A DNA stretch of 58,939 nt, from assembly GCA_041663665.1 (NCBI GenBank), contig JBAYMG010000007.1:1-58939 (forward strand). The letters are read 5' to 3'. Each line of letters begins with the position of its first letter. Positions within the stretch are counted from its first letter, which is position 1. Source of the DNA: Candidatus Omnitrophota bacterium (lineage in GTDB: Bacteria; Omnitrophota; Gorgyraeia; Gygaellales; Profunditerraquicolaceae). The notes beneath the pieces are model-generated. The model searched no databases. It was given only the letters and a program-made list of their open reading frames with translations, and was not told the origin of the DNA. This document shows positions 9,643 to 48,758 of the stretch, piece after piece. Position numbers and translations under genes: made by a program.

Positions 9643-9664
9643 ATTTAAAATTTAGGAGAAGTAA

Positions 9665-12553: not shown

Positions 12554-12611
12554 GGTAATTCAGGGTGAATAAGACATATTTAGGAAATATTTGGAAGGAG
12601 CGCACTTAAGC

Positions 12612-13034: not shown

Positions 13035-13404
13035 GGTTTTAATTGTTGATGATGAGGTTGATTTTACTAAGCTGATAAAATTTAATCTTGAACAAACCGG
13101 TAAATATGAGGTGTTGGCTCTACCTGATGCGAAAGATATTATATCTCAGGTCCACGCGTTTAAACCGGATATAATCCTGCTTGATATTATTATGCCCGGG
13201 ATAATGGGGATTGAAGTTTGTGAGATGTTAAATAAGGATTCAATCGGGAAAGGTATCCCAATTATTATACTTTCAGCGTTGGCTAAAGATGCCGACAAAT
13301 ATAAGGCTTATAAGGTTGGGGTAGTGGATTATATGGCTAAACCGATAGATATAACGCGGTTGACTGTAAAAATAGAAAAATACATTCAATTTAAAAAAGG
13401 ATAG
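13024..13404 (+). CDS. Single-domain response regulator receiver
   Basis: LIVDDE, DIILLDIIMPG, AKPI. Confidence 0.92.
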   Translation: MVNKVLIVDDEVDFTKLIKFNLEQTGKYEVLALPDAKDIISQVHAFKPDIILLDIIMPGIMGIEVCEMLNKDSIGKGIPIIILSALAKDADKYKAYKVGVVDYMAKPIDITRLTVKIEKYIQFKKG

Positions 13405-14500: not shown

Positions 14501-14508
14501 AAACCGAT

Positions 14509-15393
14509 ATGATTTCTAAAGAGGTCCTAAAAAATATCCGCCGCATTCAGATAACTACATCGCGCATGGTTACTGATGTTTTTGCCGGCCAGTACCAGAG
14601 CGTGTTTAAGGGCAAAGGCATGGAATTTGAGGAGGTGCGCGAGTATCAGCCTGGAGATGAGATTCGTTCAATCGACTGGAATGTTACTGCCCGGATGGGA
14701 AGCCCGTATATTAAGAAGTTTGTGGAAGAAAGGGAGTTAACGGTGATGTTGATTTTGGATATGTCCTCTTCCTCCTTTTTTGGCACGAGAAATCAGCAAA
14801 AAATGCGCTTAGCCGCGGAAGTATGTTCGGTTTTAGCCTTCGCTGCCATAAAGAATAATGATAAAGTAGGATTTATTGCGTTTACGGATAAAATTGAGAA
14901 ATTTATCCCGGCACGTAAAGGGCTGCGCCATGTTTTACGCATCATAAGCGAGGCTTTATATTTTAAGCCCCTAGGTAAAGGGACTGATATTAACGGCGCC
15001 TTGGAATACCTGAATAAAATTACTAACCGCAAGACAGTTACTTTTATTATTTCCGACTTTTACGCAGCTGATTTTAAAAAGATGCTGGCAATAAGCAATA
15101 AACGCCATGATATTGTTGCCATAACTGTAACTGACCCGAGGGAGATGGAGTTAACAGATGCGGGAATAGTGAAATTAGAGGATTTAGAGAGCGGAAAGAC
15201 TTTTGTGGTTGATACTTCGGATCGTAGTGTGCGTAAAAAATATGCTCAGGATGCCCTCAAAAGGCATCGGGACAGGGGGATGTTATTTTCTTCGGTCAAT
15301 GTGGATAATATTGATCTGCGAACGGATATGCCTTATGCACAGAGTTTATTGAGATTTTTTAAAACTAGAGAGAGGAGATTGAGAATAAAATGA
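14509..15393 (+). CDS. DUF58 (vWA-like) MoxR partner
   Basis: GMEFEEVREYQPGDEIRSIDWNVTAR, EERELTV, DMSSS. Confidence 0.93.
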   Translation: MISKEVLKNIRRIQITTSRMVTDVFAGQYQSVFKGKGMEFEEVREYQPGDEIRSIDWNVTARMGSPYIKKFVEERELTVMLILDMSSSSFFGTRNQQKMRLAAEVCSVLAFAAIKNNDKVGFIAFTDKIEKFIPARKGLRHVLRIISEALYFKPLGKGTDINGALEYLNKITNRKTVTFIISDFYAADFKKMLAISNKRHDIVAITVTDPREMELTDAGIVKLEDLESGKTFVVDTSDRSVRKKYAQDALKRHRDRGMLFSSVNVDNIDLRTDMPYAQSLLRFFKTRERRLRIK

Positions 15394-16595
15394 AAAAGAA
15401 TGTTATTGTAACTATAGGTGTAATTATTCTACTGGTTATCGTAAATTTATTTATTACAAAAAAAGTTTCTAATTATACAAATTGCAGCCAGCAACCTGCC
15501 TGGACGGATAAGCTGCAGCTGGAATATGCCAACACTTTGCTCTCTAAGGGGCTAAATACTAACGCCGCGCAGGCTTTTGAGGTTTATATAGAAAGAACCC
15601 ATGCGAATAATAAAGATTTGGCCGGCATTTGTAATAAACTGGGGGATATTTATTTGGATTTAAAGGAGTATGAAAAAGCTCTGGCTAATTTTTATAAGAG
15701 CGAATTACTCGACCCTAATTCCGATGACAAACAGGATATGAATCAAAAGATAGTCAGTGCTTTAGAAAACTCGGGGTTAAGCCAGCAGGCTCAGTATGAA
15801 TTGGAAAGCCGGACTGCGGTTAAGCCGGGTGCGCCAAAAAGTAAAAATGTTGCAATTAGAATCGGGAAAAGAGAGATAACTATTGAAGAGATTGATGGGG
15901 TGATTAATAATTTTCCCGAGTCGGTAAGGAAGGAATTAAGTAATGATGATGCTAAATTAAGATTTATCCGGGAGTATGCGGCCAGCGAAGTTCTTTATGA
16001 AAAAGGGAAAAAACTGGGGTTGGATAAACTTAATAGTGTCCGGATAATGATTGAAGATTTTAAGAAAAAACTTATTTTACAAGAGCTGTTGCGCAATGAA
16101 GTGGATAAGGAATTAAAAATTACGCCCGATGATATTTCTTTGTATTATCAGGCTAATCAAAAAAGGTACCGTACTCCGGAGCGAGCCAAGGTAGCGTTTC
16201 TGGAATTAAGTGATTTAGCCAAAAATAATGAGATAGCCTCTAAGCTTAAGCAGGGTAAAGGCGAAAAAATAGAAGAGTGGATAGAAAAAGGTTCAGTTTA
16301 TCTGCCGAATAATCTTGGAGAATCAAAGGAAGCAGTAGAAAATATTTTTAAACAACAAAAAGGCGGAATAGTTGATCCGGTTAAAATTAAAGGTAAATTG
16401 TATATGTTTATAGTCAATGATAAGCAGCCGTCGACGCAGCAGGGTTTTGAAGAAGTTAAGCAGCAGGTCGAAGGTGAATACCGTATGCAAAAACAGCAGC
16501 AGATAGTTAAATCTTTTGTGGATAGAGCGATGGAGCAGCAGGAAGTAGCTATTTTGTTCCAGCCGAAGAAAACAGATGAAAAAGTTTCAAAATAA
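15390..16595 (+). CDS. Exported TPR + SurA/PpiC-like chaperone (peptidyl-prolyl isomerase family)
   Basis: N-term TM, TPR-like segment, ITIEEID..., ITPDDISLYYQANQKRYRTPERAKV, FEEVKQQV foldase-type motifs. Confidence 0.7.
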   Translation: MKKNVIVTIGVIILLVIVNLFITKKVSNYTNCSQQPAWTDKLQLEYANTLLSKGLNTNAAQAFEVYIERTHANNKDLAGICNKLGDIYLDLKEYEKALANFYKSELLDPNSDDKQDMNQKIVSALENSGLSQQAQYELESRTAVKPGAPKSKNVAIRIGKREITIEEIDGVINNFPESVRKELSNDDAKLRFIREYAASEVLYEKGKKLGLDKLNSVRIMIEDFKKKLILQELLRNEVDKELKITPDDISLYYQANQKRYRTPERAKVAFLELSDLAKNNEIASKLKQGKGEKIEEWIEKGSVYLPNNLGESKEAVENIFKQQKGGIVDPVKIKGKLYMFIVNDKQPSTQQGFEEVKQQVEGEYRMQKQQQIVKSFVDRAMEQQEVAILFQPKKTDEKVSK

Positions 16596-17523
16596 AATAT
16601 TATTTTCTAGCTTAGTTTTTTTCTTGGCAGCTTTGGCTTCTGTTTGTTTTGCTCAAGATAAAAAAGAGCCGGCTTCGCCGATTACGGTTGAGGCTAAGGT
16701 AGATAAAAAAGTTGCGGCTATCGGTGACAAAATAAAATACACCATTCTTATTCAAAAAGATAAGGATATTGAAATTCAACCTTTTGTTTTTGGGGAGAAT
16801 TTAGGTAATTTTGCGATTAAGGATTTTGGTTCAAAGCGAAGCGTATTTTTGAATAAAGAAAAAATTTCTGAATGGTACATTTTGGATACATATATAACCG
16901 GAAAAACCACTATACCTAAGGTAGTTCTTAAATATAAGTTAAAGAAAGATAAAGACTGGAGCCAGGTTGAAGCCGGAGAGATTACGCTTGAGATAAAAAG
17001 TGTTTTGGATAAAACCGGGCTAGATATCCAGATGCGGGATGTAAAAGGCCCGGTAGGATTGCCTTCGGGAATAAACAAGTATCTCATTTTCACAATTCTA
17101 TTTATTGCAGTGATTTTAGGCAGTTTAGCCGTATGTTTTTTAAAAAGAAATAAAGAGGTGTCTATGCCAACAAGGCCTGCCTGGGAAATAGCTTATGAGC
17201 AGCTTGAGCTTTTGCGTTTAAAGGATTACGTCGGACAGGGGAAGATCAAAGAATATTATACGGAAGCCTCGGATATTATCAGGCATTATCTTGAGAATCA
17301 ATTTAAGCTTAGGGCCCCTGAGATGACTACCGAAGAATTTTTGATTAGCGTAAGGGATTCTTCGGGATTAATTAATGAGCATAAAAATCTCCTGAAAGAG
17401 TTCTTGCTTTGTTGTGATTTGGTAAAATTTGCCAGATATTCGCCTCCTGCAGATGAAATAAATTCTGTTTTAGATTCAGCAAAACATTTTATTAGCCAGA
17501 CAAAAGAAAATGATCCTGCATAA
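16576..17523 (+). CDS. Bat-operon accessory membrane protein (BatD-like N-domain, DUF4381-like)
   Basis: Signal peptide, AKVDKKVAAIGDKIKY, RDVKGP, TM, YYTEASDIIRHYLE..APEMTTEEF, DLVKFARY. Confidence 0.75.
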   Translation: MKKFQNKILFSSLVFFLAALASVCFAQDKKEPASPITVEAKVDKKVAAIGDKIKYTILIQKDKDIEIQPFVFGENLGNFAIKDFGSKRSVFLNKEKISEWYILDTYITGKTTIPKVVLKYKLKKDKDWSQVEAGEITLEIKSVLDKTGLDIQMRDVKGPVGLPSGINKYLIFTILFIAVILGSLAVCFLKRNKEVSMPTRPAWEIAYEQLELLRLKDYVGQGKIKEYYTEASDIIRHYLENQFKLRAPEMTTEEFLISVRDSSGLINEHKNLLKEFLLCCDLVKFARYSPPADEINSVLDSAKHFISQTKENDPA

Positions 17524-18508
17524 TCCGTTTGTCCTGATCCTTATTCCGCTAGCCGTAATGCTTTTTTTATACAAAGAGAAAAAGCCGAAAACTGTGTCGG
17601 CTTTTAAGTTCTCATCAGGTGAATTAGTGGGGGGGGTGAAAAGTTCTTTTAAGCTTAAGCTAAGCCAAAAAATGATTTTTTTGAGAATTTTGGCTGTAAT
17701 ATTAATAATTTTTGCTTTGTCCAGGCCGCAGTCGCCAGTTGCTGATTCTAAGATACAGTCAGAAGGTATCGATATTGTCCTGGCGATTGATTGTTCTACT
17801 AGTATGCTTGCTGAGGATTTTAAACTGGGAGGGCAAAGGCAAAGCCGGGTTGAAGTTGTTAAAAGCGCGGTTAAAGATTTTATTGCCGGCAGAAAGAATG
17901 ACCGTATTGCTATTGTAGCTTTTGCTGCCCGGGCGTATACAGTTTGCCCGTTAACCCTGGATTATGGCTGGTTGTTGGATAATTTGGAAAGAGTTAAAAC
18001 GGGTTTAATCGAAGATGGAACAGCAATCGGCTCCGGGATAGCCACTTCTTTAAATCGATTGAAGGAAGCTAAGGCAAAAAGTAAAGTCGTTATTTTGCTT
18101 ACTGATGGCCGTAATAATACAGGTAAGATCTCTCCAATGACCGCTGCGGAAGCAGCTAAGGCTTTAAAAATTAAGATTTATACTATTGGTGCCGGTTCAA
18201 AAGGCCCGGTACCTTATCCGGTGAAAGATTTTTTTGGTAATACGGTATATCAGCCTGTTCAGATAGATATTGATGAGGATACTTTAATTAAAATCGCGGA
18301 TTCCACCGGGGGAAAATATTTTCGGGCGCAAGATACCGAAGGCCTGCGTAAGATATATAAAGAAATAGATGGGTTGGAAAAGACGATAATCGAGGATAAA
18401 GGTTATTTAGAATATAATGAATTATTTACGGTGTTTCTAATTTTGGGTTTAGCAGTTTTATTATTGGATATTATTCTGTCTAATACTATTTTAAGAAAAA
18501 TACCATGA
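17510..18508 (+). CDS. batA: BatA vWA-domain protein
   Basis: MIDAS DCSTSM, DGTAIGSGI, ILLTDGRNN, KIYTIG; position in the MoxR/Bat operon. Confidence 0.9.
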   Translation: MILHNPFVLILIPLAVMLFLYKEKKPKTVSAFKFSSGELVGGVKSSFKLKLSQKMIFLRILAVILIIFALSRPQSPVADSKIQSEGIDIVLAIDCSTSMLAEDFKLGGQRQSRVEVVKSAVKDFIAGRKNDRIAIVAFAARAYTVCPLTLDYGWLLDNLERVKTGLIEDGTAIGSGIATSLNRLKEAKAKSKVVILLTDGRNNTGKISPMTAAEAAKALKIKIYTIGAGSKGPVPYPVKDFFGNTVYQPVQIDIDEDTLIKIADSTGGKYFRAQDTEGLRKIYKEIDGLEKTIIEDKGYLEYNELFTVFLILGLAVLLLDIILSNTILRKIP

Positions 18509-19518
18509 GATTTGCCGCGGTAAATTTTATTTTGGGATTTTTTGTCATCTTTATTTTGGTATTATTTTATTTCTGGGCTGCCCGAGCCCGTAAGGCTGCT
18601 CTTGAGAAATTTGCCCAAAAAGAACTCTTGGGTGATTTGTTAGTTGCTATTGACTATCGAAAGAGATTCTTAAAAATCTTCCTAATAATTTTAGCCATTG
18701 CGTTTTGTCTTTTTGCTTTGATGCGGCCGCAATGGGGATTTCATTGGGAGGAAGTAAAGCGCAGCGGTGTGGATATTTTGATTGCTTTGGATACTTCAAA
18801 AAGCATGCTTGCTGAAGATGTTAAACCCGATAGGTTCCAGCGTTCAAAATTAGCAATCAAAGACCTGGTGCATAATCTCAAAGGAGATAGGATTGGTTTA
18901 ATTGCTTTTTCCGGAAGCGCATTTTTACAATGCCCTCTTACTGTGGATTACGGAGGATTTTTACTTGCACTCGATAATATTGGTATAGATACTATTCCTA
19001 AGGGCGGGACATCGATAACCAGCGCAATAAAAGAAGCTTTAAGAAGCTATGAGGGCGGGCAGAAGAAATATAAGGTGCTGATTATTATTACCGATGGCGA
19101 AGACCATGAAGGTAACCCCGTTCAAGAAGCTTTAGAGGCTAGAAAAGAAGGAATCAGTATATTTTGTGTTGGTATAGGTACCCGGGAAGGGGATCTTATC
19201 CCGGTTGAAGATGAATCTGGGCAGAAAGTGTTTTTAAAGGATAGGCAGGGCAATGTTATTAAATCTCGCCTTGACGAGAGCAGCCTGCAGAAGATTGCTT
19301 TAACTACCGGGGGCGTATACGTAAGAGCTACTAATACCGAATTCGGCTTAGATTTGATTTACCGGGAAAAGGTTTCTAAGATGGAAAAGAGGGAACTGCA
19401 GTCTAAAATGAATAAGCATTATGAAGAGAGGTTCCAGATATTTTTATGGCTGGCGTTATTGTTATTAATGTTGGAGCCTTTCATTGGCGATAAAAAGAAT
19501 ATAAGGAAGATTTTTTAA
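18505..19518 (+). CDS. batB: BatB vWA-domain protein
   Basis: RPQWG, ALDTSKSMLAEDVKPDR, PLTVDY, IITDGEDHEG. Confidence 0.9.
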   Translation: MRFAAVNFILGFFVIFILVLFYFWAARARKAALEKFAQKELLGDLLVAIDYRKRFLKIFLIILAIAFCLFALMRPQWGFHWEEVKRSGVDILIALDTSKSMLAEDVKPDRFQRSKLAIKDLVHNLKGDRIGLIAFSGSAFLQCPLTVDYGGFLLALDNIGIDTIPKGGTSITSAIKEALRSYEGGQKKYKVLIIITDGEDHEGNPVQEALEARKEGISIFCVGIGTREGDLIPVEDESGQKVFLKDRQGNVIKSRLDESSLQKIALTTGGVYVRATNTEFGLDLIYREKVSKMEKRELQSKMNKHYEERFQIFLWLALLLLMLEPFIGDKKNIRKIF

Positions 19519-19519
19519 A

Positions 19520-20341
19520 ATGAGAAAGCTAGTGTTTATTATTCTTCAGGTTGTAATTATGTCGGGAAGTTTTTGCCTGCTTTCATTTGCCGAGGATAGT
19601 GCTAAAATAGTGGGCCAGGCAAACAGCCTGTATAAACAGGGAAAGTATGACGAGGCGATTAAATTATACAATCAGGCACAAATAAAATCTCCGGATTCTT
19701 CGGAGATTAATTATAATATAGGTATAGCTGAGTACAAAAAAAGCGATTATAATCAAGCAATCAGCTTTTTTGAAAAAGCAACTTCTTCTCAAGACAAGAT
19801 TTTAGAATCTAAGGCAAATTTCAATATCGCCAATTCAAAATATAGGCTGGGTAAACTTAAGGAAAATACAGAATTAAAAGAAACTGTAAGTTTAATGCGT
19901 CAAGCGTTGGATTATTACAAAAGGGCAATAGAGTTAAATTCTAAAGATCAGGATGCAAAAATAAACCATGAGCTGGTTGAAAAAGAATTAAAGATCCTTT
20001 TGGATAAATTAAAACAAGAGCAGGATAAGCAAAAAGGTCAATCCGGGCAAGAAAAAGAAGGGCAGGATGATAAGAAGGAGCAGGCAGCTTTAGGCCAGGA
20101 TCAAAAGGCGAAAGAACAAAAGAAAGAAGAGCCTAAAGAAGGCCAGGAGATTAAGCAGGCTGAAGAGCAGCAGGGAAGCCAGGATAAGGAATCTGCTAAC
20201 CAGGCTTCTGGCGAGGCAAAGGATATGTCTAAGGAAGAAGCGAATATGCTCTTAGAGGGGTATAGGCAGGAAGAGAATTCTGCCGGAAAATTAGAAGATA
20301 ATAAAAAAGGTAATGCCGGTGAAGTATCGAAGGATTGGTAA
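19520..20341 (+). CDS. batC: BatC TPR protein
   Basis: TPRs, Q/E/K-rich linker, C-terminal KDW typical of BatC. Confidence 0.85.
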   Translation: MRKLVFIILQVVIMSGSFCLLSFAEDSAKIVGQANSLYKQGKYDEAIKLYNQAQIKSPDSSEINYNIGIAEYKKSDYNQAISFFEKATSSQDKILESKANFNIANSKYRLGKLKENTELKETVSLMRQALDYYKRAIELNSKDQDAKINHELVEKELKILLDKLKQEQDKQKGQSGQEKEGQDDKKEQAALGQDQKAKEQKKEEPKEGQEIKQAEEQQGSQDKESANQASGEAKDMSKEEANMLLEGYRQEENSAGKLEDNKKGNAGEVSKDW

Positions 20342-22176
20342 TGTCTAGGTTAAAAAATAAAACTATAAATTTTAAGCTTTTAATTTTATGCTTAAGCCTT
20401 GCGTTTAATGCCTTAAGTTCTGCGGGTATTTGTTTTGCCAAAGAATTTAACTTTGAAGCCACGGTTGATAGGAACAAGCTGTCTTTGGGTAGTTCTCTGC
20501 AGTTAGCTCTGGCATTTGATGACGTACAAAACATGCCAGTTCCGGAATTACCGGCAATTGATGGATTCCAAGCGCGTTATTTGGGCCCTTCAACGATGAT
20601 GTCTATAGTTAATGGAAAGTCATCAAGTTCGATAACGCATAATTACCTGCTTCTTTCGACGAAAGTGGGTAATTTTAAGATTGGGCCTTTTAAAATAGAA
20701 CATAGTGGAGATAGATATACTTCTAATCAACTTAGTGTCGAGGTCTTGGCCGGGCAGGTTGAAAATACTTCTCAACCCGGCAATCAGGCGGAACCGTTGA
20801 TCAAGGATTTAAACGACAGGTTGTTTTTGATAATTCAAACAAAGAAGAAGAGCGCCTATTTAAATGAGATTATTCCGCTAACCATTAAATTGTATATAAA
20901 TAATTTAGGCGTAAGAGATATTCAATATCCGGAGTTCAGCCATGAAGGTTTTTCAGTTGGAAGGTTTGATAAGCCTAACCAGTATCAGGAGGTTTATAAA
21001 GGGGTGAATTTCGATGTCTTGGAATTCAATACTTCAATTTTCGGCTTAAGGCCGGGAGAATTTAAATTGGGGCCGTCTAATATCAAATGTAATTTGATTA
21101 TACAGAAGCAGCCAAGAGGCAGGTCTACTTTTAATTCGAATATCTTTGATGATTTTTTCGGCAGGCAGGAAATCTATCCTGTAAATTTGCAATCCGGGTA
21201 TATCGCGCTTACTGTTTTGCCGCTGCCGGCAGAGAATCGGCCGGAGGATTTTTCAGGTACTTTGGGTAATTTTAATCTTGAAGTGTCAGTTTCTCCTCTA
21301 GAGGTTAAGGTAGGAGATCCGATTACTCTTACTATGGTTGTTAGCGGGGAAGGTAATCTCGATACTGTCGGAGCCCCGAAGCTTAAATCTGAAGCAGGTT
21401 TTAAAATTTACGAGCCCCAAATAAAACAAGCAGGTAACCAAAAGAGTTTCGAGCAAATTATTATGCCAATGAGCGCTCAGGTTAAGGAAGTTCCGATGAT
21501 CTCGCTCGCTTTTTTTAATATTCAGTCCGGGGAGTATAAAACTATAACCCGCGGGCCTTTTCCGATAGTTATCGTTAAGCCTGAAAAAGAAGAAGAGTCC
21601 AAAGTAGTAGAAAATAAACTGCCTGCTGTTGTTCCGGCTGTTCAAGAGGAGAAATTAGGCAGGGATATTATTTATATTAAAGAAAATTGCGGGCATTTAG
21701 CAAGGAAGGGTGAGTATCTTTATAAAAATAGAATATTTTTAGGATTACAGGTTATTCCTTTATTAATTTATTTGTTAACATTTATAATTTATAAAAGGCA
21801 AAGAAGATTTAAAACAGACTTGAAATACGCCAGGCAGCTTTTAGCTCCACGCAAGGCCAGGACAGGGATTTATCAAGCCAAAAAGTATTTAGATAAAGCT
21901 GATGTTGATAAATTTTATGATACTTTATTTGATACCATGCAGGAATATCTGGGAGATAGGTTGCATTTGCCTTCAAAAGGTATAACCATCAGTGTTATCG
22001 ATGAGCATTTAGGCAATAATGTTGTAGACGCCCAGGTACTGGTTAAGCTGAGAGATATCTTCCGGGACTGTGATATGGTTAGGTATGCTTCTTCGCAGCT
22101 AACTGGTGAGAATATGCGCGATTCTTTAAAAAAATTAGAAGAAGTTATTGATTATCTTCAAAGACAAAAAATATGA
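20335..22176 (+). CDS. batD: BatD family protein
   Basis: EATVDRNK, SIVNGKSSSSIT, VKVGDPITL, GEGNL repeated Ig-like modules. Confidence 0.88.
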   Translation: MVMSRLKNKTINFKLLILCLSLAFNALSSAGICFAKEFNFEATVDRNKLSLGSSLQLALAFDDVQNMPVPELPAIDGFQARYLGPSTMMSIVNGKSSSSITHNYLLLSTKVGNFKIGPFKIEHSGDRYTSNQLSVEVLAGQVENTSQPGNQAEPLIKDLNDRLFLIIQTKKKSAYLNEIIPLTIKLYINNLGVRDIQYPEFSHEGFSVGRFDKPNQYQEVYKGVNFDVLEFNTSIFGLRPGEFKLGPSNIKCNLIIQKQPRGRSTFNSNIFDDFFGRQEIYPVNLQSGYIALTVLPLPAENRPEDFSGTLGNFNLEVSVSPLEVKVGDPITLTMVVSGEGNLDTVGAPKLKSEAGFKIYEPQIKQAGNQKSFEQIIMPMSAQVKEVPMISLAFFNIQSGEYKTITRGPFPIVIVKPEKEEESKVVENKLPAVVPAVQEEKLGRDIIYIKENCGHLARKGEYLYKNRIFLGLQVIPLLIYLLTFIIYKRQRRFKTDLKYARQLLAPRKARTGIYQAKKYLDKADVDKFYDTLFDTMQEYLGDRLHLPSKGITISVIDEHLGNNVVDAQVLVKLRDIFRDCDMVRYASSQLTGENMRDSLKKLEEVIDYLQRQKI

Positions 22177-22955
22177 AAATAAAAAGTTTGACTAGTTTAT
22201 TAGTTTTATTTATAGTTTTAAGTTTTCATAGTGTATTTGCGCAAGAGGCAGCGCCTAATGCGCAAGGATCGCTTTTTTATCAGGCAAATGCTTATTACCG
22301 GGAAGGAAAATATAATGTAGCTATCAAGGACTATAAAAAACTTATTGATTCCGGCCTAGAAAGCGGGAATTTGTATTATAATTTGGGGAATAGCTACTTT
22401 AAGCAAGGCCAGCTTGGGCTGGCCCTCTTAAATTATGAAAGGGCTAAGTTTTTTATTCCCCAGGATAGTGATTTGAGATCTAACTTTGAGTATACCCTGC
22501 ATACGTTAAATTTAGAGCCGCAGTCTTTTGGTAGCCGGGCGCAGAGGTTAGTTTATAAATTATTTGAAGCTATGACGCTTGATTTTTTAACTGTTTTTCT
22601 ATCTATTGTGTATGTTATTTTAATTTTATTCTTTATTTTGAATTTATTTTCCAGCGGAATAAAAAAGGTTTTCGGAGTAGCTGTCTCTATATTGCTGACG
22701 TTATTTATTCTATCGGCCGTTGCTTTGGATGGAAGAATAAACTATCTTAATAAAAGTGCTATTGTTGTAAGTAAAGAAGCCGATGTTAAATTTGAGCCCT
22801 TTGCCGGGGCGACTACTTATTTTAAGCTAAATGAAGGCAGCAGGGTAGAAGTAACAGATAAGGCTGAGAGTTGGTATAAATTGAAGCGATTTGATGGAAA
22901 AACAGGCTGGGTAGATAAAGGCGCCTTAGTTTTAATTTCCGGTAATCCCCGATAA
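22173..22955 (+). CDS. batE: BatE TPR + SH3b protein
   Basis: LYYNLGNSYFKQGQLGLALLNYERA; C-terminal LNEGSRV..W....GKTGWV SH3b. Confidence 0.88.
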   Translation: MKIKSLTSLLVLFIVLSFHSVFAQEAAPNAQGSLFYQANAYYREGKYNVAIKDYKKLIDSGLESGNLYYNLGNSYFKQGQLGLALLNYERAKFFIPQDSDLRSNFEYTLHTLNLEPQSFGSRAQRLVYKLFEAMTLDFLTVFLSIVYVILILFFILNLFSSGIKKVFGVAVSILLTLFILSAVALDGRINYLNKSAIVVSKEADVKFEPFAGATTYFKLNEGSRVEVTDKAESWYKLKRFDGKTGWVDKGALVLISGNPR

Positions 22956-23049: not shown

Positions 23050-23100
23050 TTGTTAAGTTGTACTTGAAATAAATAATATATGTTAAATGATACTTGACAA
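23050..23100. promoter_or_regulatory. Two imperfect palindromic operators (TTGTYAAG-N5-CTTRAMAA-like) overlapping the XRE promoter
   Basis: ttgttaag-ttgta-cttgaaat (23050-23070) and atgttaaa-tgata-cttgacaa (23080-23100), exactly 30 bp apart. Confidence 0.55.
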
Positions 23101-23122
23101 GGATAGCTTTTTAGTTTATATT
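23094..23122 (+). promoter_or_regulatory. Sigma70-type promoter of the XRE-cupin gene
   Basis: TTGACA-N17-TATATT; GGAGG RBS before ATG 23144. Confidence 0.7.
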
Positions 23123-23143: not shown

Positions 23144-23695
23144 ATGAAGATCGTTGGCGTGAATATAAAAAGGTTAAGAGAAGATAAGGGGATGACGCTT
23201 AGGGCTTTTGGCAAGCAGCTAGGGGTTAGTGCCAGTTTTATATCACAGGTAGAAACCGGTAAGGCTTCTCCGTCGCTTTCTACTTTAAAAAATATTGCTG
23301 ATACTCTCTCGACAACTGTCGGTAATTTGATCGGGGAGGGGCAAAAAGCCAGTGATAATCCTGTGGTTAAAGCCAGCCAGCGGAAATATTTACAACAGGT
23401 AGGTAAGGGGGTTAATATTTATCTTTTGACTTCCCAAGACATAAATAAGCAAATGGAACCTATGTTGTTTAAATTAAGCGAGAAGGCTAATTCCGGCGAG
23501 GCTTCTTATAAGCATTTTGGACAGGAGTTTGTTTTGGTCCTTAGGGGGGAAATAGAAATTACACTAAATGATACGATATATATTTTAAAAAAGGGAGATA
23601 GTATTTATTTTAATTCCAGTGTTCCACACGCGTTTAAGAATATCGGCAAGGAAGAAGCAGAAGCTGTTTGGGTGGTCACGCCGCCTACTTTTTAA
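23144..23695 (+). CDS. XRE-family HTH + cupin transcriptional regulator
   Basis: IKRLREDKGMTLRAFGKQLGVSASFISQVETGKASPSLSTL; cupin HFGQEFVLVLRG..GDSIYFNSSVPH. Confidence 0.93.
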   Translation: MKIVGVNIKRLREDKGMTLRAFGKQLGVSASFISQVETGKASPSLSTLKNIADTLSTTVGNLIGEGQKASDNPVVKASQRKYLQQVGKGVNIYLLTSQDINKQMEPMLFKLSEKANSGEASYKHFGQEFVLVLRGEIEITLNDTIYILKKGDSIYFNSSVPHAFKNIGKEEAEAVWVVTPPTF

Positions 23696-23770: not shown

Positions 23771-24985
23771 ATGAAAGATTTAATTAAGGCTAAGGCAAAA
23801 GGATTGAATGAATCACTGGTTAAGTTTTCCCGCAGAATTGCTGATTGTAATTCTACCGGCACTACGTCAGAATTTACTAAATTAATCTCTGAGGAGATGA
23901 AAAGCTTGAATTTTGATAAAGTGACTAACGATAAGTCAGGTAATCTGATCGGAGTTATTAAGGGATACGAAAATAAAGATGCGCTGGTGGTTATTTCGCA
24001 CCTGGATATTCTGTCGCCGCAAGAACAGAGAACAGAGGCTTGCCTTAAAAGCGGGGTAGTTAAATATAAAGGGGGAATAGTTTCCAGTGTGTACTCCGGG
24101 GCGCTTGTAAAAAGAACATTGTTGCCGTTAACCGGGGATTTAATTGTTTGCTGTATACCCAGGCATGAGTGTTGCGACTCAGGCATAAAGTATCTTTTTG
24201 AGAATTATTTAAAACCAAAGCTTAAAAAAATACGCGGAGTTATTCTTTGCGAGCCGACTGATTTTAATATTCATCTCGGGCACAAAGGAAGAATGGAATA
24301 TGAAATAATTGTTAAAGGCAGGCTGAACCGGAACTTTTTAGAAAATAAAAGCATGAACATGCTGGGGGCAATGTTCCCCTTAATCAGCGAATTGGAAAAA
24401 GCTTCAAAACAATTACCCAGTGATTCTAACTTGGGATATTCTAATCTCAGGATTAAGGATGTCAGATATAGCGGATATCATCCGGAAGATGAACTTAATG
24501 AGTTCAGGGTAGTTGTTGACCGGGTGTTTATTCCTGAGGAAAATCTTAGCGGTATTCTGGATAAAGCAAAGACTATTGCTAAGAATGTGTACAAGGGGGA
24601 GTTGGATATAACTATTAATACCGCTTTGGCCAGGGAAAAAGTAAAAACCTATACCGGTTTAGAGCTTGTTTCGGAGAAGGAATTTAAGCCCTGGGTAATG
24701 GAAAGCCATCATCCTTTTGCGTTAGAGTCACTTAAAAGCCTGGTGGATAACGGTTTTAAATCTTCCTTTGGGTATTGGAAGAAGATTATCACTGAAGGTT
24801 CATATACTTGCGCGGAATTAAATATACCTACGATTGGTTTCGGTGCCGGCTTAGAGGATACAATAGATTCAGACACTGAATCGCTGAGTATGGATAAATT
24901 AGAAAGAGCAGTATACGGGCAAGCGTTGATTATCCAAAGGAATATTGGGGTACCGACATTTGGCTGGAGTTCAGATGAAATATAA
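23771..24985 (+). CDS. M20/DapE-family (YgeY-like) hydrolase homologue with degenerate metal site
   Basis: EEMKSLNFDKV..DKSGNLIG, SHLD, CEPT, GHKGRMEY, IPTIGFGAG match the YgeY/M20 layout; GRGxxD and the C-terminal His ligand are not recognisable. Confidence 0.75.
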   Translation: MKDLIKAKAKGLNESLVKFSRRIADCNSTGTTSEFTKLISEEMKSLNFDKVTNDKSGNLIGVIKGYENKDALVVISHLDILSPQEQRTEACLKSGVVKYKGGIVSSVYSGALVKRTLLPLTGDLIVCCIPRHECCDSGIKYLFENYLKPKLKKIRGVILCEPTDFNIHLGHKGRMEYEIIVKGRLNRNFLENKSMNMLGAMFPLISELEKASKQLPSDSNLGYSNLRIKDVRYSGYHPEDELNEFRVVVDRVFIPEENLSGILDKAKTIAKNVYKGELDITINTALAREKVKTYTGLELVSEKEFKPWVMESHHPFALESLKSLVDNGFKSSFGYWKKIITEGSYTCAELNIPTIGFGAGLEDTIDSDTESLSMDKLERAVYGQALIIQRNIGVPTFGWSSDEI

Positions 24986-26210
24986 AAAAACAAAGATCAA
25001 TATTTTAACCTTGAATTGCGGCAGTTCTTCTTTGAAATACAGGATAATTAGGATGCCGGAGGAGAAATGCCTGGTTCAGGGGGAAGCTGAAAGAGTGGGA
25101 ATTAAAACCCAGGGGGATTCTGTAATTACTCATTCGGTTTTAGGTAAAACCAGAGTTATTAAACTTAAGCTTAAGGATCACGCTGAGGCGTTGAATAAAA
25201 TTTTAAGCTTGATAGCTAACGATGCGCGAGAGAATAAAGAAATAATTTTTGATATTTTTGCGCACCGCTATGTTCATCCCGGTAATTTTTTTACTAAGCC
25301 TGTAAAAGTGAATAAAATTGTTTTAGGTAAGTTGAAAGAAACTTTAAGTTTAGCAGCAATTCATAATCCCATCATCTATAATTTAATTGAATTCTGTAAC
25401 CGAAAATACAAAGCAGTTGAGCAATACGTTGTGTTCGATACCGCGTTTCATAAAACTATACCCGCTGAATTCTCCACCTACGCCCTTCCGGTGAAATTAT
25501 CCAAGAAATATGGCTTAAAGAAAATCGGTTTTCATGGTATATCGCATCAGTATGTAATGGAGGAGGCTTGCAGATTTTTAAAACGGGATCCTAAATTGCA
25601 GAAGGTAATCAGCTGCCATTTGGGCACAGGAGGATCCAGTATTTGTGCAATCAATCGGGGTAAATCATTTAACACTTCTATGGGGTTCACGCCTTTAGAA
25701 GGCTTGGTTATGAATACCCGCTGCGGGGACCTGGATTTAGGAGTTATTTTTTACATAATGTTCAAAGAGAATTTCTCCCCGGTAGAGGCTGAAAATATCC
25801 TTAATAAGAAAAGCGGGATTTTAGGCCTGTTCAGTTCCTCCTCGGATCTAAGGGATGTGGTTGGCAACATTGATACCGATCAAAAGGCAAAAATGGCATT
25901 TGATATGTATGTGCAGAGGGTAAAGGCATATTTAAGTTTTTACGTTTTAATCCTTAAAAAAGCGGATATTTTAATTTTCACAGATTCATTGGGTACCGGA
26001 GTCCCTTTATTGCGCCAGAGTATTTGCGCTAACCTGGATTTTTTAGGGATTAGTTTAGATAAAGATAAAAATCAGGCTTATCAGGATGGAATAGCCCAGC
26101 TAGGGTCTGCGCAGAGCCAAACAAAGATACTGGTTGTTCCGACCAATGAAGAACTTATGATTGCCAAAGAAACTTATAAGGAGTTAATAAAAAATGATAC
26201 TCGTAATTGA
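24975..26210 (+). CDS. ackA: Acetate kinase family protein with atypical nucleotide-binding loops
   Basis: LNCGSSSLKY, HRYVH, FDTAFH, GFHGISH, CHLGTGGSS, TSMGFTPLEG..TRCGD, SDLR, FTDSLG, PTNEE; ATG 24975 preferred. Confidence 0.9.
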   Translation: MKYKKTKINILTLNCGSSSLKYRIIRMPEEKCLVQGEAERVGIKTQGDSVITHSVLGKTRVIKLKLKDHAEALNKILSLIANDARENKEIIFDIFAHRYVHPGNFFTKPVKVNKIVLGKLKETLSLAAIHNPIIYNLIEFCNRKYKAVEQYVVFDTAFHKTIPAEFSTYALPVKLSKKYGLKKIGFHGISHQYVMEEACRFLKRDPKLQKVISCHLGTGGSSICAINRGKSFNTSMGFTPLEGLVMNTRCGDLDLGVIFYIMFKENFSPVEAENILNKKSGILGLFSSSSDLRDVVGNIDTDQKAKMAFDMYVQRVKAYLSFYVLILKKADILIFTDSLGTGVPLLRQSICANLDFLGISLDKDKNQAYQDGIAQLGSAQSQTKILVVPTNEELMIAKETYKELIKNDTRN

Positions 26211-27288
26211 AATGAATCTGAAGGATGTTAAATTTTGGATTTATAAACAAAAAAATATGGGGCTGTCGCATTTTTTTGTAAAGGATATAGAAGAAGTCAG
26301 AACGAGCAAAACACTTAAAAATGATATTCTTAATTTTACCGGCAGCAGCAAGATCGAGGCGATCTCATTCAGGATTTTATTCGGGGGGGATTTTTTTGAT
26401 AAAACCACAGTAATTAATCAACAGTTTTTTACTAAATTCAGCAAGCTGACTGAATTTTTCCCTTTTTATATACCTTTAATATTGGATATGCTGAAAATAT
26501 TTTACCGTGATTTTAAAGATATTCCGCAAATTGCTTTTTTTGAAACCTCTTTTTTTTCCAAGCTGCCGGAAGAAGAAAAATATTATGCGATTCCGCAGGA
26601 GTTCCATAAGGATAATAAAATAAAAAAATGGGGTTTCCATGGGATATACCATGAAGCTAACTCGGGCATGTTCCCCCAGGGGCGAAAATGTATTTCTATA
26701 GTTTTTGATAAACAAACTACAGTTTGCGCGATTAAAGATAGCAAGCCATTAATGATCAGCCTCGGGTTTACACCGTTAGAAGGTGTCATGTCCCGGACCA
26801 GCTGCGGAGACCTGGATCCGGGAATAGTCTTTTATCTGGTAAATGTTCATAAATTTTCAATTTATAAAATCGATGATATCTTAAAAAATGAAAGCGGGTT
26901 TTTGGGGCTTACGGGTTATGATTTAGAGCTAAATGAATTATTAAAATTTTATGGTAAAGACCCCAAGGTGAACGTGGCTTTTGATGTGTATCAGGCGCAA
27001 ATATTAAAATACATTGGAGAAGGTATTTCTGTTTTAGGCGGGCTGGATCAGATTGTATTCTCAGGCAGCCAGGTTGATGCGTTTAATCCGATCATCTACA
27101 GCCTGATTAAAAAGATTTCATTTCTAGGTATTAATACTATAAGATTGCCTTGGGCTAATGATAAGAAAACATTTCAGATTACCTCTGTGGATTCTGAGAT
27201 CAAAGTGCATCTTAACCGGGTTAATCTAGCTGAAACTATTTTTTACGGGACCGAGAAACTTTTACATAAAAAATCATCGAAACTATAA
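26194..27288 (+). CDS. Degenerate second acetate-kinase-fold protein (probable pseudoenzyme)
   Basis: Retains GFHG and LGFTPLEG..SCGDLDPG; lacks GSSSLK, HRxVH, DTAFH, HLGxG, the catalytic Arg of TRxG and PTNEE. Confidence 0.8.
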   Translation: MILVIEMNLKDVKFWIYKQKNMGLSHFFVKDIEEVRTSKTLKNDILNFTGSSKIEAISFRILFGGDFFDKTTVINQQFFTKFSKLTEFFPFYIPLILDMLKIFYRDFKDIPQIAFFETSFFSKLPEEEKYYAIPQEFHKDNKIKKWGFHGIYHEANSGMFPQGRKCISIVFDKQTTVCAIKDSKPLMISLGFTPLEGVMSRTSCGDLDPGIVFYLVNVHKFSIYKIDDILKNESGFLGLTGYDLELNELLKFYGKDPKVNVAFDVYQAQILKYIGEGISVLGGLDQIVFSGSQVDAFNPIIYSLIKKISFLGINTIRLPWANDKKTFQITSVDSEIKVHLNRVNLAETIFYGTEKLLHKKSSKL

Positions 27289-27438: not shown

Positions 27439-27466
27439 TTGACATTAAAAGTATTAGTTTTATAAT
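27439..27466 (+). promoter_or_regulatory. Consensus sigma70 promoter upstream of the RRM gene
   Basis: TTGACA-N16-TATAAT. Confidence 0.7.
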
Positions 27467-27580: not shown

Positions 27581-28108
27581 ATGAATATCTTCGTCGGAAA
27601 TTTATCTTTTGAGGCTAAAGAATCGGATGTTTTAAGGGCTTTTGCTCATTTTGGCCAGGTTGAGAGCGTGGTAATTGTTATGGACAAAAATGGCAAGAAA
27701 TCCCGGGGTTTTGGGTTTGTCGAGATGCCGGATGAGCAAGAAGCACTGGCGGCAATTACTGCTTTACAGGACAAAGAAATATTGGGCAGGCAGATTAACG
27801 TTATGACCGCTTTGTCCAAGAAACATGAGAGCGAGCCGGAGGATTATAAAAAAAGTGAACCCGAGGATCCTCTTGTTTATAAGCATACAGGCAAGTTTAA
27901 AGAGGGCAGGCGTACGATTAGTTATTTAAAACGCCAAGTGAAGTCCGGGGCTGTTATTTCTGCGCTTGAGCCTAAATTCAAAGCTAATCCGATGCGTTGG
28001 CGTAAGAAATCAAAATGGGCTACTCCTTACCAAAAACCAGAAGGCGAAGCTAAGGCGCTTAAAGCCCGCGCAACAACGAACAGAGGCTTCGTAAAGCATA
28101 AACAATGA
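27581..28108 (+). CDS. RRM RNA-binding protein with a basic C-terminal extension
   Basis: RNP2 IFVGNL, RNP1 RGFGFVEM; K/R-rich tail. Confidence 0.92.
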   Translation: MNIFVGNLSFEAKESDVLRAFAHFGQVESVVIVMDKNGKKSRGFGFVEMPDEQEALAAITALQDKEILGRQINVMTALSKKHESEPEDYKKSEPEDPLVYKHTGKFKEGRRTISYLKRQVKSGAVISALEPKFKANPMRWRKKSKWATPYQKPEGEAKALKARATTNRGFVKHKQ

Positions 28109-42555: not shown

Positions 42556-42556
42556 A

Positions 42557-48666: not shown

Positions 48667-48758
48667 AGTCCTATTCTAAATCAAATAATTTAAAAACCAA
48701 GTGAAAAAATGTGGCGAATCTGATTGATAAAATGGCAAATTAGTAATAGAATAAATCC

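What the first reader, a model, noticed from the sequence alone, without database searches (positions are those of the whole stretch)
24975..26210. Bacterial acetate kinase with Entamoeba-type (PPi-dependent) signatures
Canonical ATP-dependent Acks read HLGNGAS and FTAGIGEN. This protein reads CHLGTGGSS (25614 on; Asn to Thr plus an extra Gly) and FTDSLGTG (25977-26000). From memory, the PPi/Pi-using Entamoeba histolytica ACK has CHLGTGGSS and FTDQMG at these loops, which were implicated in excluding ATP; this needs confirming by alignment. Acetyl-phosphate/acetate residues (HR, DTAFH, FHG, TRCG, NEE) are intact. Inference: a bacterial PPi-forming acetate kinase, which would bear on PPi-based energy metabolism and on the origin of the Entamoeba gene.
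Basis: partly seen in the sequence, partly recalled or inferred. Interest (0 to 1): 0.8.

Follow-up and report, generated by a model that had tools for sequence, protein, structure and literature searches.

The report
Entamoeba-type acetate kinase with dead partner
The gene is a real bacterial acetate kinase whose ATP-binding loops carry the same rare changes as the pyrophosphate-using enzyme of Entamoeba. It always sits next to a catalytically dead copy of itself, so it probably works as a two-part enzyme that does not use ATP, though this has not been assayed.

Summary
Observation confirmed. ORF 24975..26210 (+) is a full-length acetate kinase in an Omnitrophota contig from a landfill metagenome. 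It reads CHLGTGGSS and FTDSLGTG at the stated coordinates. The solved Entamoeba histolytica enzyme (4H0O) reads CHLGTGGSS and FTDQMGLE.

Interpretation partly supported. All acetate and acetyl-phosphate catalytic residues are kept. The nucleotide-site positions carry the changes found in the Entamoeba-type clan: an extra residue in PHOSPHATE2, Gly239 to Asn, Ala/Gly330 to Asp, and Gly331 to Ser. However, the Entamoeba residues proposed to block ATP (Gln323, Met324, Glu327) are Ser, Leu and Gly here. Entamoeba also falls in the sister branch, not with this gene. PPi use is inferred, not shown. Bacterial enzymes with these signatures were already flagged in 2017.

What I found no report of: in all 78 testable genome loci, spanning more than 12 phyla, this kinase type is followed at once by a catalytically dead acetate-kinase paralog. 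In the window this is 26194..27288. In the window's branch the kinase is also preceded by an M20-like protein (23771..24985), whose metal site is degenerate in the window's subclade. Entamoeba has no such paralog within 10 kb of its gene.

Most likely this is a heteromeric, non-ATP acetyl-phosphate phosphotransferase that forms PPi.

The parts
23094..23122 (+). Sigma-70-like promoter match (TTGACA-17-TATATT) upstream of the regulator gene
   Evidence: Consensus scan, 11 of 12 matches. Weak evidence only.
23144..23695 (+). HTH_3 + Cupin_2 transcriptional regulator (183 aa), likely the local regulator of the module
   Evidence: Pfam match. The same 183-aa gene lies upstream on the same strand in 20 related loci.
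23771..24985 (+). M20-like (distantly YgeY/ArgE/DapE-like) protein, 404 aa, with a degenerate metal site. It overlaps the kinase start by 11 nt.
   Evidence: Pfam M20 scores 24.0 bits, below the 24.6 cutoff. NCBIfam YgeY scores 154.6 bits against a cutoff of 321. H77, D79 and E161 are kept. Bridging Asp98 is Lys, Glu131-Glu132 are Arg-His, and His366 is Asp. The gene is adjacent upstream in 20 of 21 type-3 loci and 47 of 49 type-2 loci.
24975..26210 (+). Entamoeba-type ('TGG/FTD') acetate kinase, 411 aa. This is the finding itself and the presumed catalytic subunit.
25011..25031 (+). PHOSPHATE1 motif LNCGSSS (equivalents of Asn7 and Ser10-12), intact
25614..25640 (+). PHOSPHATE2 motif CHLGTGGSS. 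It has Thr plus one extra residue where canonical enzymes have Asn211.
25707..25730 (+). LOOP3 VMNTRCGD. Asn occupies the Gly239 position (Ser in Entamoeba). Arg241 is intact.
25977..26003 (+). ADENOSINE motif FTDSLGTGV. Asp replaces Ala/Gly330, Ser replaces Gly331, Thr replaces Glu334 and Gly replaces Asn335.
26194..27288 (+). Ack', a catalytically dead acetate-kinase paralog (364 aa). It overlaps the kinase stop by 17 nt and is the presumed non-catalytic partner subunit.
   Evidence: Pfam Acetate_kinase scores E=6e-50, but the protein scores 169.7 bits against the TIGR00016 cutoff of 293.4. It lacks PHOSPHATE1, His208, Arg241 and Glu384. It gives a confident full ACK-fold model. It lies downstream of the kinase in 78 of 80 genome loci.

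Best explanation
ORF 24975..26210 is the catalytic subunit of a small, separately regulated operon. The operon is HTH-cupin regulator, degenerate M20-like protein, Entamoeba-type acetate kinase (Ack), and a dead acetate-kinase paralog (Ack'). The kinase keeps the full machinery for acetate/acetyl-phosphate chemistry. Its nucleotide site is remodelled in the way seen in the Entamoeba PPi/Pi-dependent enzyme.

The most likely reaction is acetyl-phosphate + Pi -> acetate + PPi. ATP/ADP would not be a substrate. The reverse reaction is thermodynamically poor. Because acetate kinases are obligate dimers, Ack most likely pairs with Ack' as a heterodimer with one active site. Ack' is co-translated with Ack, folds like an acetate kinase and co-evolves with Ack. 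The M20-like protein is a further accessory partner whose hydrolase site has decayed in this subclade.

Shown here: gene identity, motifs, clan membership, conserved gene order, and loss of catalytic residues in Ack' and the M20-like protein. Inferred: PPi/Pi specificity, reaction direction, heterodimer formation, and any role for the M20-like protein.
For: Identity and intact catalytic core. Asn7, Ser10-12, Arg91, Val93, His123, Asp148, Phe179, His180, His208, Pro232, Arg241 and Glu384-385 are all conserved.

Nucleotide-site remodelling shared with EhACK and fixed across the clan: the insertion in PHOSPHATE2, Gly239 to Ser or Asn, Ala/Gly330 to Asp in 57 of 58 sequences, and Gly331 lost. In M. 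thermophila and E. coli ACKs, each of these substitutions lowers ATP-dependent activity. The reported effect is 15- to 200-fold in MtACK (PMC4390882, PMC5517563). The only characterised clan member uses Pi/PPi only (PMC5517563).

Positions 334-336, which are conserved in canonical enzymes (Glu 132 of 142, Asn or His 124 of 142), vary freely inside the window clade. This is as expected if adenosine is no longer bound.

Clan support: bootstrap is 0.65 with motifs masked and 0.87 unmasked.

Ack' evidence. It lies directly downstream in 78 of 80 genome loci; the other two loci are cut by contig ends. The median gap is -4 nt. Pairwise identities of Ack and Ack' correlate at r=0.91. Ack' forms one clade with bootstrap 0.95. 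It has lost PHOSPHATE1, His208, Arg241 and Glu384 in all three subtypes. It still gives a confident ACK-fold model, with pLDDT 85.7 and TM about 0.8.

Control: the nearest canonical Ack locus examined has neither Ack' nor M20.

Parallel from the literature: in PPi-PFK an Asp replacing a Gly at the donor site is thought to exclude ATP (PMC5931981).
Against: No enzymology exists for any bacterial member of this clan. The bulky EhACK residues thought to occlude the adenosine pocket (Gln323, Met324, Glu327) are Ser, Leu and Gly here. The pocket may therefore be less closed.

Swapping these residues never switched specificity in either enzyme (PMC5517563), so the motifs do not prove specificity. 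The window clade keeps Lys14 of PHOSPHATE1, as ATP-dependent enzymes do, whereas Entamoeba and the FTDD type do not.

By overall similarity the protein is as close to canonical enzymes as to EhACK. It scores 316.7 bits to T. maritima against 257.4 bits to EhACK. The best fold match is MtACK.

EhACK is active as a homodimer and has no Ack' within 10 kb, so Ack' is not needed for PPi chemistry. No Pta, PPi-PFK, PPDK or membrane PPase lies in the window. Tight linkage to an M20-type protein and a dedicated regulator suggests a specialised pathway that the PPi model does not explain.
Confidence: 0.5

Rival explanations
1. It is an acyl-phosphate phosphotransferase that uses neither ATP nor PPi. 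The phosphoryl partner would be another compound, such as polyphosphate or a metabolite linked to the M20-type protein. Alternatively, the acyl substrate is something other than acetate that the operon's pathway delivers.
For: Dang and Ingram-Smith (PMC5517563) raised this possibility for bacterial sequences whose residue at position 323 differs from Entamoeba. Position 331 differs by subtype: Asp, Ser/Thr or Gln. In types 2 and 3 the kinase sits in a tight operon with an M20-type protein. That protein has intact ligands in type 2. Each operon has a dedicated regulator, either sigma-54 XylR/V4R-type or HTH-cupin. This looks like an inducible pathway rather than central acetate formation.
Against: The acyl-pocket residues are acetate-type: Val93, Phe179 and Pro232 are kept, and Leu122 is Ile as in EhACK. 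No recurrent neighbour gene suggests a specific alternative substrate. The M20-like protein is catalytically degenerate in the window's own subclade.
Confidence: 0.2
2. It is an ordinary ATP-dependent acetate kinase. The loop differences are lineage-specific variation that still allows nucleotide binding, and the enzyme works with Pta to make ATP, as current Omnitrophota reconstructions assume.
For: It scores above the TIGR00016 cutoff. Overall it is as similar to T. maritima and M. thermophila enzymes as to EhACK. Ser and Leu at positions 331-332 are small. Asp283, Arg285 and Lys14 are kept. Published reconstructions annotate Omnitrophota Ack as ATP-yielding (PMC8542988, PMC10066038).
Against: Gly331 is present in 135 of 142 canonical sequences and in only 1 of 58 clan members. 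Asp330 appears only together with the insertion. The same substitutions strongly impair ATP use when placed in canonical enzymes (PMC4390882, PMC5517563). The adenosine-contact positions 334-336 are unconstrained in this clade. A universal dead partner subunit is not a feature of canonical ack loci.
Confidence: 0.15
3. The Ack/Ack' pair is mainly a sensor or regulator of acetyl-phosphate or acetate, or a scaffold with the M20-like protein, rather than a flux-carrying enzyme.
For: Two of the three operon products in the window look like pseudoenzymes. EhACK knock-down did not change acetate output in Entamoeba (PMC9983610).
Against: Every catalytic residue of Ack is strictly conserved across more than 12 phyla. 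That implies selection for catalysis.
Confidence: 0.05

Closest known systems
Entamoeba histolytica PPi-forming acetate kinase (EhACK, EC 2.7.2.12; PDB 4H0O)
   Same: Same Pfam family and the same catalytic residues. It has an identical PHOSPHATE2 motif, CHLGTGGSS, with the extra Gly. It shares Asp at EhACK position 322, loss of Gly239 and Gly331, Ile in IHNP, and an aromatic residue at position 92. Both fall in the same clan in NJ trees.
   Different: It is only 36-39% identical. Gln323-Met324-Glu327 are Ser-Leu-Gly here. Lys14 is kept here. GFTPLEG is kept here, whereas Entamoeba has GNSTLAG. Entamoeba lies in the sister subclan with FTDD-type bacteria. Entamoeba has no Ack' or M20-like neighbour and is active as a homodimer.
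Putative bacterial PPi-ACKs of Anaerolineaceae noted by Dang and Ingram-Smith 2017 (e.g. Ornatilinea apprima WP_075061087)
   Same: These are bacterial enzymes with the extra Gly in PHOSPHATE2 and a conserved Asp in ADENOSINE. They are uncharacterised biochemically. The O. apprima locus also carries Ack' directly downstream.
   Different: They are type 1 (FTDDIG), the subtype nearest to Entamoeba, and have no M20-like gene (0 of 8 loci). The window gene is type 3 (FTDSLG) and has a degenerate M20-like gene and an HTH-cupin regulator. The paper describes no partner paralog.
Canonical ATP-dependent acetate kinase (M. thermophila 1G99/1TUY, T. maritima 2IIR, E. coli AckA)
   Same: Same fold (TM 0.86 to 1g99). 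About 38-41% identity. The acetate/acetyl-phosphate and Mg2+ residues are identical.
   Different: The canonical HLGNG, Gly239 and [AG]-G-[IV]-G-E-N nucleotide-contact set is replaced. Canonical genes are usually paired with pta and work as homodimers. The canonical control locus examined has no Ack'.
PPi-dependent phosphofructokinase versus ATP-PFK
   Same: This is a functional analogy. A PPi-using kinase derives from an ATP-using family, and an Asp replaces a conserved Gly at the donor site (PMC5931981).
   Different: It belongs to an unrelated fold and family, so it is an analogy only.

Membership tests
Acetate/propionate kinase family (Pfam PF00871, TIGR00016) | Profile score above the curated cutoffs over the full length | tested here: met
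   PF00871 scores 362 bits (cutoff 22) and covers profile positions 2-392 of 392. TIGR00016 scores 366.7 bits against 293.4.
Acetate/propionate kinase family (Pfam PF00871, TIGR00016) | Catalytic and substrate residues in MtACK numbering: Asn7, Ser10-12, Arg91, His123, Asp148, Phe179, His180, His208, Arg241, Glu384 | tested here: met
   All are present in the window protein and invariant across the clan.
PPi/Pi-dependent acetate kinase (EhACK type, EC 2.7.2.12) | Uses Pi/PPi and not ADP/ATP as phosphoryl acceptor/donor | not testable with these tools
   This needs enzyme assays. No bacterial member has been assayed in the literature searched.
PPi/Pi-dependent acetate kinase (EhACK type, EC 2.7.2.12) | Extended PHOSPHATE2 loop (extra Gly, EhACK Gly203) with Thr in place of Asn211 | tested here: met
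   CHLGTGGSS is identical to EhACK.
PPi/Pi-dependent acetate kinase (EhACK type, EC 2.7.2.12) | Asp at EhACK position 322 in the ADENOSINE motif | tested here: met
   The motif reads FTD. Asp is present in 57 of 58 insertion-bearing sequences and 0 of 142 others.
PPi/Pi-dependent acetate kinase (EhACK type, EC 2.7.2.12) | Bulky residues proposed to occlude the adenosine pocket: Gln323, Met324 and Glu327 | tested here: not met
   The window has Ser, Leu and Gly at these positions. Gly331 is nevertheless lost.
PPi/Pi-dependent acetate kinase (EhACK type, EC 2.7.2.12) | Groups phylogenetically with the Entamoeba enzyme | tested here: inconclusive
   Both fall in the same clan, with bootstrap 0.65 masked and 0.87 unmasked. 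Entamoeba sits in the other subclan (0.945). The window gene sits in the type 2+3 subclan (0.97). These are NJ trees only.
PPi/Pi-dependent acetate kinase (EhACK type, EC 2.7.2.12) | Occluded adenosine pocket in the 3D structure | not testable with these tools
   The model gives no coordinates. Global fold search does not discriminate: 1g99 has TM 0.86 and 4h0o has TM 0.76. The loop at residues 243-254 has low confidence.
YgeY family M20 hydrolase (NF009555/TIGR03526), for the upstream gene | Score above the equivalog cutoff and the M20 metal-ligand set (His, Asp, Glu-Glu, Glu, His) | tested here: not met
   It scores 154.6 bits against a cutoff of 321. Three of the ligand or base positions are replaced.
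Ack' (dead acetate-kinase paralog; family defined here) | ACK fold, loss of PHOSPHATE1, His208, Arg241 and Glu384, and a position directly downstream of a TGG-type Ack | tested here: met

The most novel reading that the evidence does not exclude
The Entamoeba-type kinase of bacteria may be an obligate heteromer of Ack and dead Ack', plus an M20-type subunit in two of three subtypes. It may carry the acetyl-phosphate step in hundreds of anaerobic species across more than 12 phyla without making ATP. It would then make PPi, or phosphorylate a still unknown acceptor tied to the M20 partner. If so, the 'ATP-yielding Pta-Ack' step drawn in metabolic reconstructions of Omnitrophota, Planctomycetota, Kiritimatiellia, Myxococcota and others is mis-assigned. 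Entamoeba would have kept only the catalytic half of a two-gene bacterial unit.
Probability: 0.3. Interest if true: 0.8.

Novelty: new variant of a known kind. Interest (0 to 1): 0.62.

Why it matters
PPi-dependent acetate kinase is known biochemically from one genus, Entamoeba. There its determinants of specificity and its physiological role are both unresolved. This work shows that the same signature defines a large bacterial clan, with about 590 matches in species-representative genomes. The clan has three subtypes and some cultured carriers, including Pontiella sulfatireligans, Ornatilinea apprima and probably Geofilum sp. These give tractable systems to test PPi versus ATP use.

Natural variation at positions 323-327 can be used to ask which residues matter. 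If PPi is the product, the energy budgets of many fermenting and acetogenic uncultured lineages need revision. Many of these lineages carry PPi-driven pumps.

I found no report of the invariant pairing with a dead paralog. It suggests a pseudoenzyme-assisted acetate kinase. This would fit reports of half-of-sites behaviour in acetate kinase dimers, which I cite from memory.

Tried and rejected
- Global structure comparison of the AlphaFold model gives the ACK fold only. MtACK ranks first and EhACK sixteenth, so it says nothing about the pocket.
- I scored Ack' against canonical and clan HMMs to find its origin. The canonical HMM scored higher in 79 of 79 cases. That HMM is built from more diverse sequences, so the result is ambiguous. 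NJ places Ack' as one clade of unresolved position, which is probably a long-branch effect.
- I searched the window for Pta, PPi-PFK, PPDK and H+/Na+-PPase and found none.
- Neighbour clustering over 82 loci found nothing recurrent beyond Ack', the M20-like gene and the two regulator types.
- Expression data: only DNA runs hold the sequence (landfill metagenome), and no RNA runs were found.
- phmmer of the M20-like protein against PDB gave no hit.
- The look-up of P0259, which has the insertion but Gly at position 331, found no contig.
- Literature searches for an Ack/pseudo-Ack pair or a YgeY-Ack link found nothing relevant.
- The group labels were wrong because the gap column had shifted. 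That result is discarded, and replace it.
- The first tree lacked type-2 sequences and gave only 0.335 support for the clan. It is superseded.
Full report
**1. What is at the coordinates**

The ATG at 24975 opens a 411-aa ORF that ends at 26210 on the + strand. It matches Pfam Acetate_kinase end to end (E=4e-108). It also passes the NCBIfam acetate/propionate kinase subfamily cutoff, at 366.7 bits against 293.4. The best sequence matches among solved structures are T. maritima AckA (2iir, 316.7 bits), M. thermophila ACK (1g99, 282.5 bits), 6ioy, annotated as P. gingivalis ACK (275.2 bits), and E. histolytica ACK (4h0o, 257.4 bits).

CHLGTGGSS lies at nt 25614-25640 and FTDSLGTG(V) at nt 25977-26003. 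EhACK reads CHLGTGGSS and FTDQMGLEV. The ATP-dependent enzymes read CHLGNGSS or CHIGNGAS, and FTAGIGEN or FTAGVGEN.

The closest homologs (53-80% identity) are almost all from Candidatus Omnitrophota MAGs. The sequence itself is held by a landfill metagenome run.

**2. What the literature says these motifs mean**

EhACK is the only acetate kinase shown to use Pi/PPi instead of ADP/ATP. It strongly prefers acetyl-P + Pi -> acetate + PPi (PMC5517563). Several features were proposed to close the adenosine pocket. These are Gln323-Met324 in the ADENOSINE motif, an extra Gly203 that lengthens PHOSPHATE2, and a LOOP4 salt bridge. A wider list of five residues is also cited: T201, D322, Q323, M324 and E327 (PMC5931981).

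Reciprocal swaps between EhACK and MtACK, and EhACK-type substitutions in E. coli ACK, lowered activity but never switched specificity (PMC5517563). In MtACK, N211T, G239S and G331A/Q reduce ATP-dependent activity 15- to 200-fold. Gly331 contacts the alpha- and beta-phosphates (PMC4390882).

Importantly, Dang and Ingram-Smith (2017) already reported 'other possible PPi-dependent ACKs' in bacteria. They listed four Anaerolineaceae and some digester metagenome sequences. These share the extra Gly and the Asp but have Asp at position 323. The authors left open whether those enzymes use PPi, ATP or something else. I found no later biochemical test.

**3. Residue-by-residue comparison**

I aligned 200 sequences: 142 canonical, 31 FTDD-type bacterial, 6 Entamoeba and 21 from the window clade. 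In that alignment the window protein keeps Asn7, Ser10-12, Lys14, Arg91, Val93, His123, Asp148, Phe179, His180, His208, Pro232, Arg241, Asp283, Arg285 and Glu384-385.

The nucleotide-contact positions differ as a block between canonical enzymes and every sequence that has the PHOSPHATE2 insertion:

| MtACK position | Canonical | Entamoeba | FTDD-type bacteria | Window clade |
|---|---|---|---|---|
| 211 | Asn | Thr plus extra Gly | Thr plus extra Gly | Thr (or Ser) plus extra Gly |
| 239 | Gly | Ser | Ser | Asn |
| 330 | Ala or Gly | Asp | Asp | Asp |
| 331 | Gly (135 of 142) | Gln | Asp | Ser or Thr |
| 334 | Glu (132 of 142) | Leu | hydrophobic | variable, mostly hydrophobic |
| 335 | Asn or His | Glu | variable | variable |

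The insertion and the Asp are almost perfectly linked. Asp is present in 57 of 58 insertion-bearing sequences and 0 of 142 others. All 120 nearest homologs of the window protein carry an FTD-type ADENOSINE motif, and at least 112 of them matched the extended PHOSPHATE2 pattern used.

Three of the five EhACK 'occluding' residues are not shared by the window protein. Gln323 is Ser, Met324 is Leu, and Glu327 is Gly. Positions 334-336 vary freely even inside the window clade, whose members are at least 53% identical overall. This fits loss of constraint on adenosine contacts. It does not say what binds there instead.

**4. Phylogeny**

A search with EhACK shows that its nearest bacterial relatives are 45-50% identical. 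They all read CHLGTGG[SA]S and, where the ADENOSINE motif was read, almost all FTDDIG. They come from many phyla. At 50% clustering the window clade is a single representative. It is about equally distant (about 40% identity) from canonical and other insertion-type representatives.

I built NJ trees on 211 sequences with the three motif regions masked (349 columns, 200 bootstraps). Support values were:

- window clade: 1.0
- second insertion-type group, 'type 2' (FTD[ST]IGE, HLGSGGAS): 1.0
- type 2 plus window clade: 0.97
- Entamoeba plus FTDD-type bacteria: 0.945
- all insertion-type sequences as one clan: 0.65 masked, 0.87 with the motif columns included

The window gene therefore belongs to the Entamoeba-type clan. 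It lies on the branch that does not contain Entamoeba. These are distance trees. The deep node is only moderately supported by sequence, and additionally by the shared indel.

**5. The neighbours: the main new result**

The next ORF, 26194..27288, overlaps the kinase stop by 17 nt. It is a second acetate-kinase-family protein: Pfam E=6e-50, and 169.7 bits against the TIGR00016 cutoff of 293.4. I call it Ack'.

I scanned one genome per GTDB species with an alignment of 41 insertion-type kinases. These came from Omnitrophota, Planctomycetota, Verrucomicrobiota/Kiritimatiellia (including cultured Pontiella sulfatireligans F21), Myxococcota, Bacteroidota, Kryptoniota, Sumerlaeota, Elusimicrobia, Firestone-, Raymond-, Margulis- and Glass-bacteria, Spirochaetota, Auribacterota and others.

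In 78 of the 80 loci an Ack' ORF follows the kinase directly on the same strand. The other two loci end at the contig edge. The median distance from the Ack stop to the first possible Ack' start is -4 nt, and 93% of gaps are 30 nt or less. The same arrangement holds in the Ornatilinea apprima locus from the 2017 paper and in other FTDD-type loci.

As a control, a canonical Ack locus has no Ack'. The Entamoeba marina and E. invadens loci have no Ack' within 10 kb either.

Ack' has these properties:

- It has no PHOSPHATE1 motif in any of the three subtypes.
- It lacks His208 (Cys, Val or Tyr instead), Arg241 (Ser or Thr instead) and Glu384 in all three subtypes. It usually has Glu for Asp148.
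- It keeps GFTPLEG, CGDxDP and SGFxGL.
- It gives a confident full ACK-fold model, with pLDDT 85.7 and TM about 0.8 to mycobacterial AckA. It has three instead of five N-terminal strands.
- It is monophyletic, with bootstrap 0.95.
- It evolves faster than Ack. Median pairwise identity is 0.28 against 0.43.
- It tracks Ack closely, with r=0.91 between pairwise identities.
- NCBI names it 'hypothetical protein' and JGI names it 'acetate kinase'.

**6. The upstream gene and regulators**

The ORF 23771..24985 overlaps the kinase start by 11 nt. It is a distant M20 (YgeY/ArgE/DapE-like) protein that scores below all curated cutoffs.

An M20-like gene sits directly upstream of the kinase in 47 of 49 type-2 loci and 20 of 21 type-3 (window-clade) loci. 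It is absent from all 8 FTDD-type loci that have enough upstream sequence.

In type 2 the M20 metal-ligand set is intact (His, Asp, Asp, Glu-Glu, Glu, His). In the window clade it is not. The bridging Asp is lost, the Glu-Glu pair is Arg-X, and the C-terminal His is lost.

Type-2 loci usually carry a divergent sigma-54 activator with XylR_N and V4R sensor domains. Window-clade loci carry an HTH_3 + Cupin_2 regulator, which in the window is 23144..23695. No other neighbour recurs.

E. coli YgeY itself is an albizziin (3-ureido-2-aminopropionate) hydrolase in anaerobic urate degradation (PMC12507026). The proteins here are too distant from it to transfer that function.

**7. Interpretation**

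Shown:

- The gene is a genuine acetate kinase with an intact acyl-phosphate site.
- Its nucleotide site is systematically remodelled, as in Entamoeba.
- It is embedded in a conserved operon with a dead paralog.
- In this branch the operon also includes an M20-type protein.

Inferred:

- The phosphoryl partner is Pi/PPi.
- The direction is acetyl-P + Pi -> acetate + PPi. The reverse is uphill because acetyl-P hydrolysis is far more exergonic than PPi hydrolysis. EhACK runs about 1000-fold faster in this direction.
- Ack and Ack' form a heterodimer with one active site.

The heterodimer idea rests on four points: the obligate dimeric nature of acetate kinases, translational coupling, the retained fold, and co-evolution. 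It was not tested structurally.

The PPi idea rests on homology of the changed positions to the one characterised enzyme, and on mutational data showing that these changes harm ATP use. Three things argue for caution: the differences at positions 323, 324 and 327; the retained Lys14; and the dedicated regulator and M20 partner. A non-ATP, non-PPi acceptor remains a live alternative, as does an unrecognised pathway role.

No Pta or PPi-dependent enzyme is encoded in the window. Published Omnitrophota reconstructions assume an ATP-yielding Pta-Ack step and report Na+-PPases as common (PMC8542988, PMC10066038).

**8. Novelty and verdict**

The inference is reasonable, unproven and not new in principle, since it was raised in 2017. 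The link to the origin of the Entamoeba gene is weak for this particular gene.

The following appear not to have been described in the literature I could search:

- the breadth of the clan
- its three subtypes
- the invariant dead paralog
- the M20-type partner, intact in type 2 and degenerate in the window clade

I file the finding as a new variant of a known kind and rate its interest as moderately high.

Noticed in passing
window 13508-22955 (+): A complete Bat/MoxR-type 'aerotolerance' operon lies directly upstream of the kinase module. It runs MoxR AAA_3 ATPase, DUF58, a PPIC-type rotamase protein, an ORF with no Pfam hit, two VWA/BatA-like proteins, a TPR protein, BatD, and a TPR-SH3 protein.
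   Followed up: no
window 775-3522 (+): A 915-aa protein combines an FHA domain, a Ser/Thr protein kinase domain and at least 13 TPR repeats. It is followed further downstream by a CHASE4-PAS protein, a dCache-HAMP histidine kinase and two stand-alone receiver proteins (6988-13404).
   Followed up: no
window 45538-51279 (both strands): An isoprenoid or carotenoid-like cluster in an Omnitrophota contig. It holds an amine-oxidase/phytoene-desaturase-like flavoprotein (45538-46983), IspH/LytB (46967-47812, -), squalene/phytoene synthase (47809-48666, -), a lycopene-cyclase-domain protein (48759-49067) and polyprenyl synthetase (50239-51279, -). These are the only minus-strand genes in the window, and GC skew dips there.
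   Followed up: no
window 40747-42949 (+): A NodU/CmcH-type carbamoyltransferase (602 aa) is followed by a small SxtJ-like protein. This pairing is known from saxitoxin-type clusters. The context was not examined.
   Followed up: no
window 27581-28108 (+): A 175-aa bacterial protein with a eukaryote-type RRM_1 RNA-recognition motif. A perfect 12-of-12 sigma-70-like promoter match lies at 27439-27466.
   Followed up: no
window 1-58939: GC skew is strongly positive throughout (about +0.05 to +0.28 per 2 kb). Nearly all genes are on the + strand, which suggests the window lies on one leading-strand replichore.
   Followed up: no
L005:5777-7891 (Ornatilinea apprima): [quoted passage not shown] Entamoeba also combines ACD with its PPi-ACK (PMC9983610). 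This was seen in one locus only.
   Followed up: partly
L003:1-4056 (Omnitrophota GCA_028699255.1): Pyruvate formate-lyase, its activating enzyme and formate-tetrahydrofolate ligase lie just upstream of the regulator/M20-like/Ack/Ack' module. This suggests a link to formate and acetyl-CoA fermentation in that genome. It does not recur across loci.
   Followed up: partly
Ack' of type-2 loci (e.g. L068:7139-8347): The position equivalent to catalytic His208 is Cys in 47 of 47 type-2 Ack' proteins and Val in 24 of 24 type-3 proteins. The strict conservation of Cys hints that Ack' has a function of its own in type 2.
   Followed up: no
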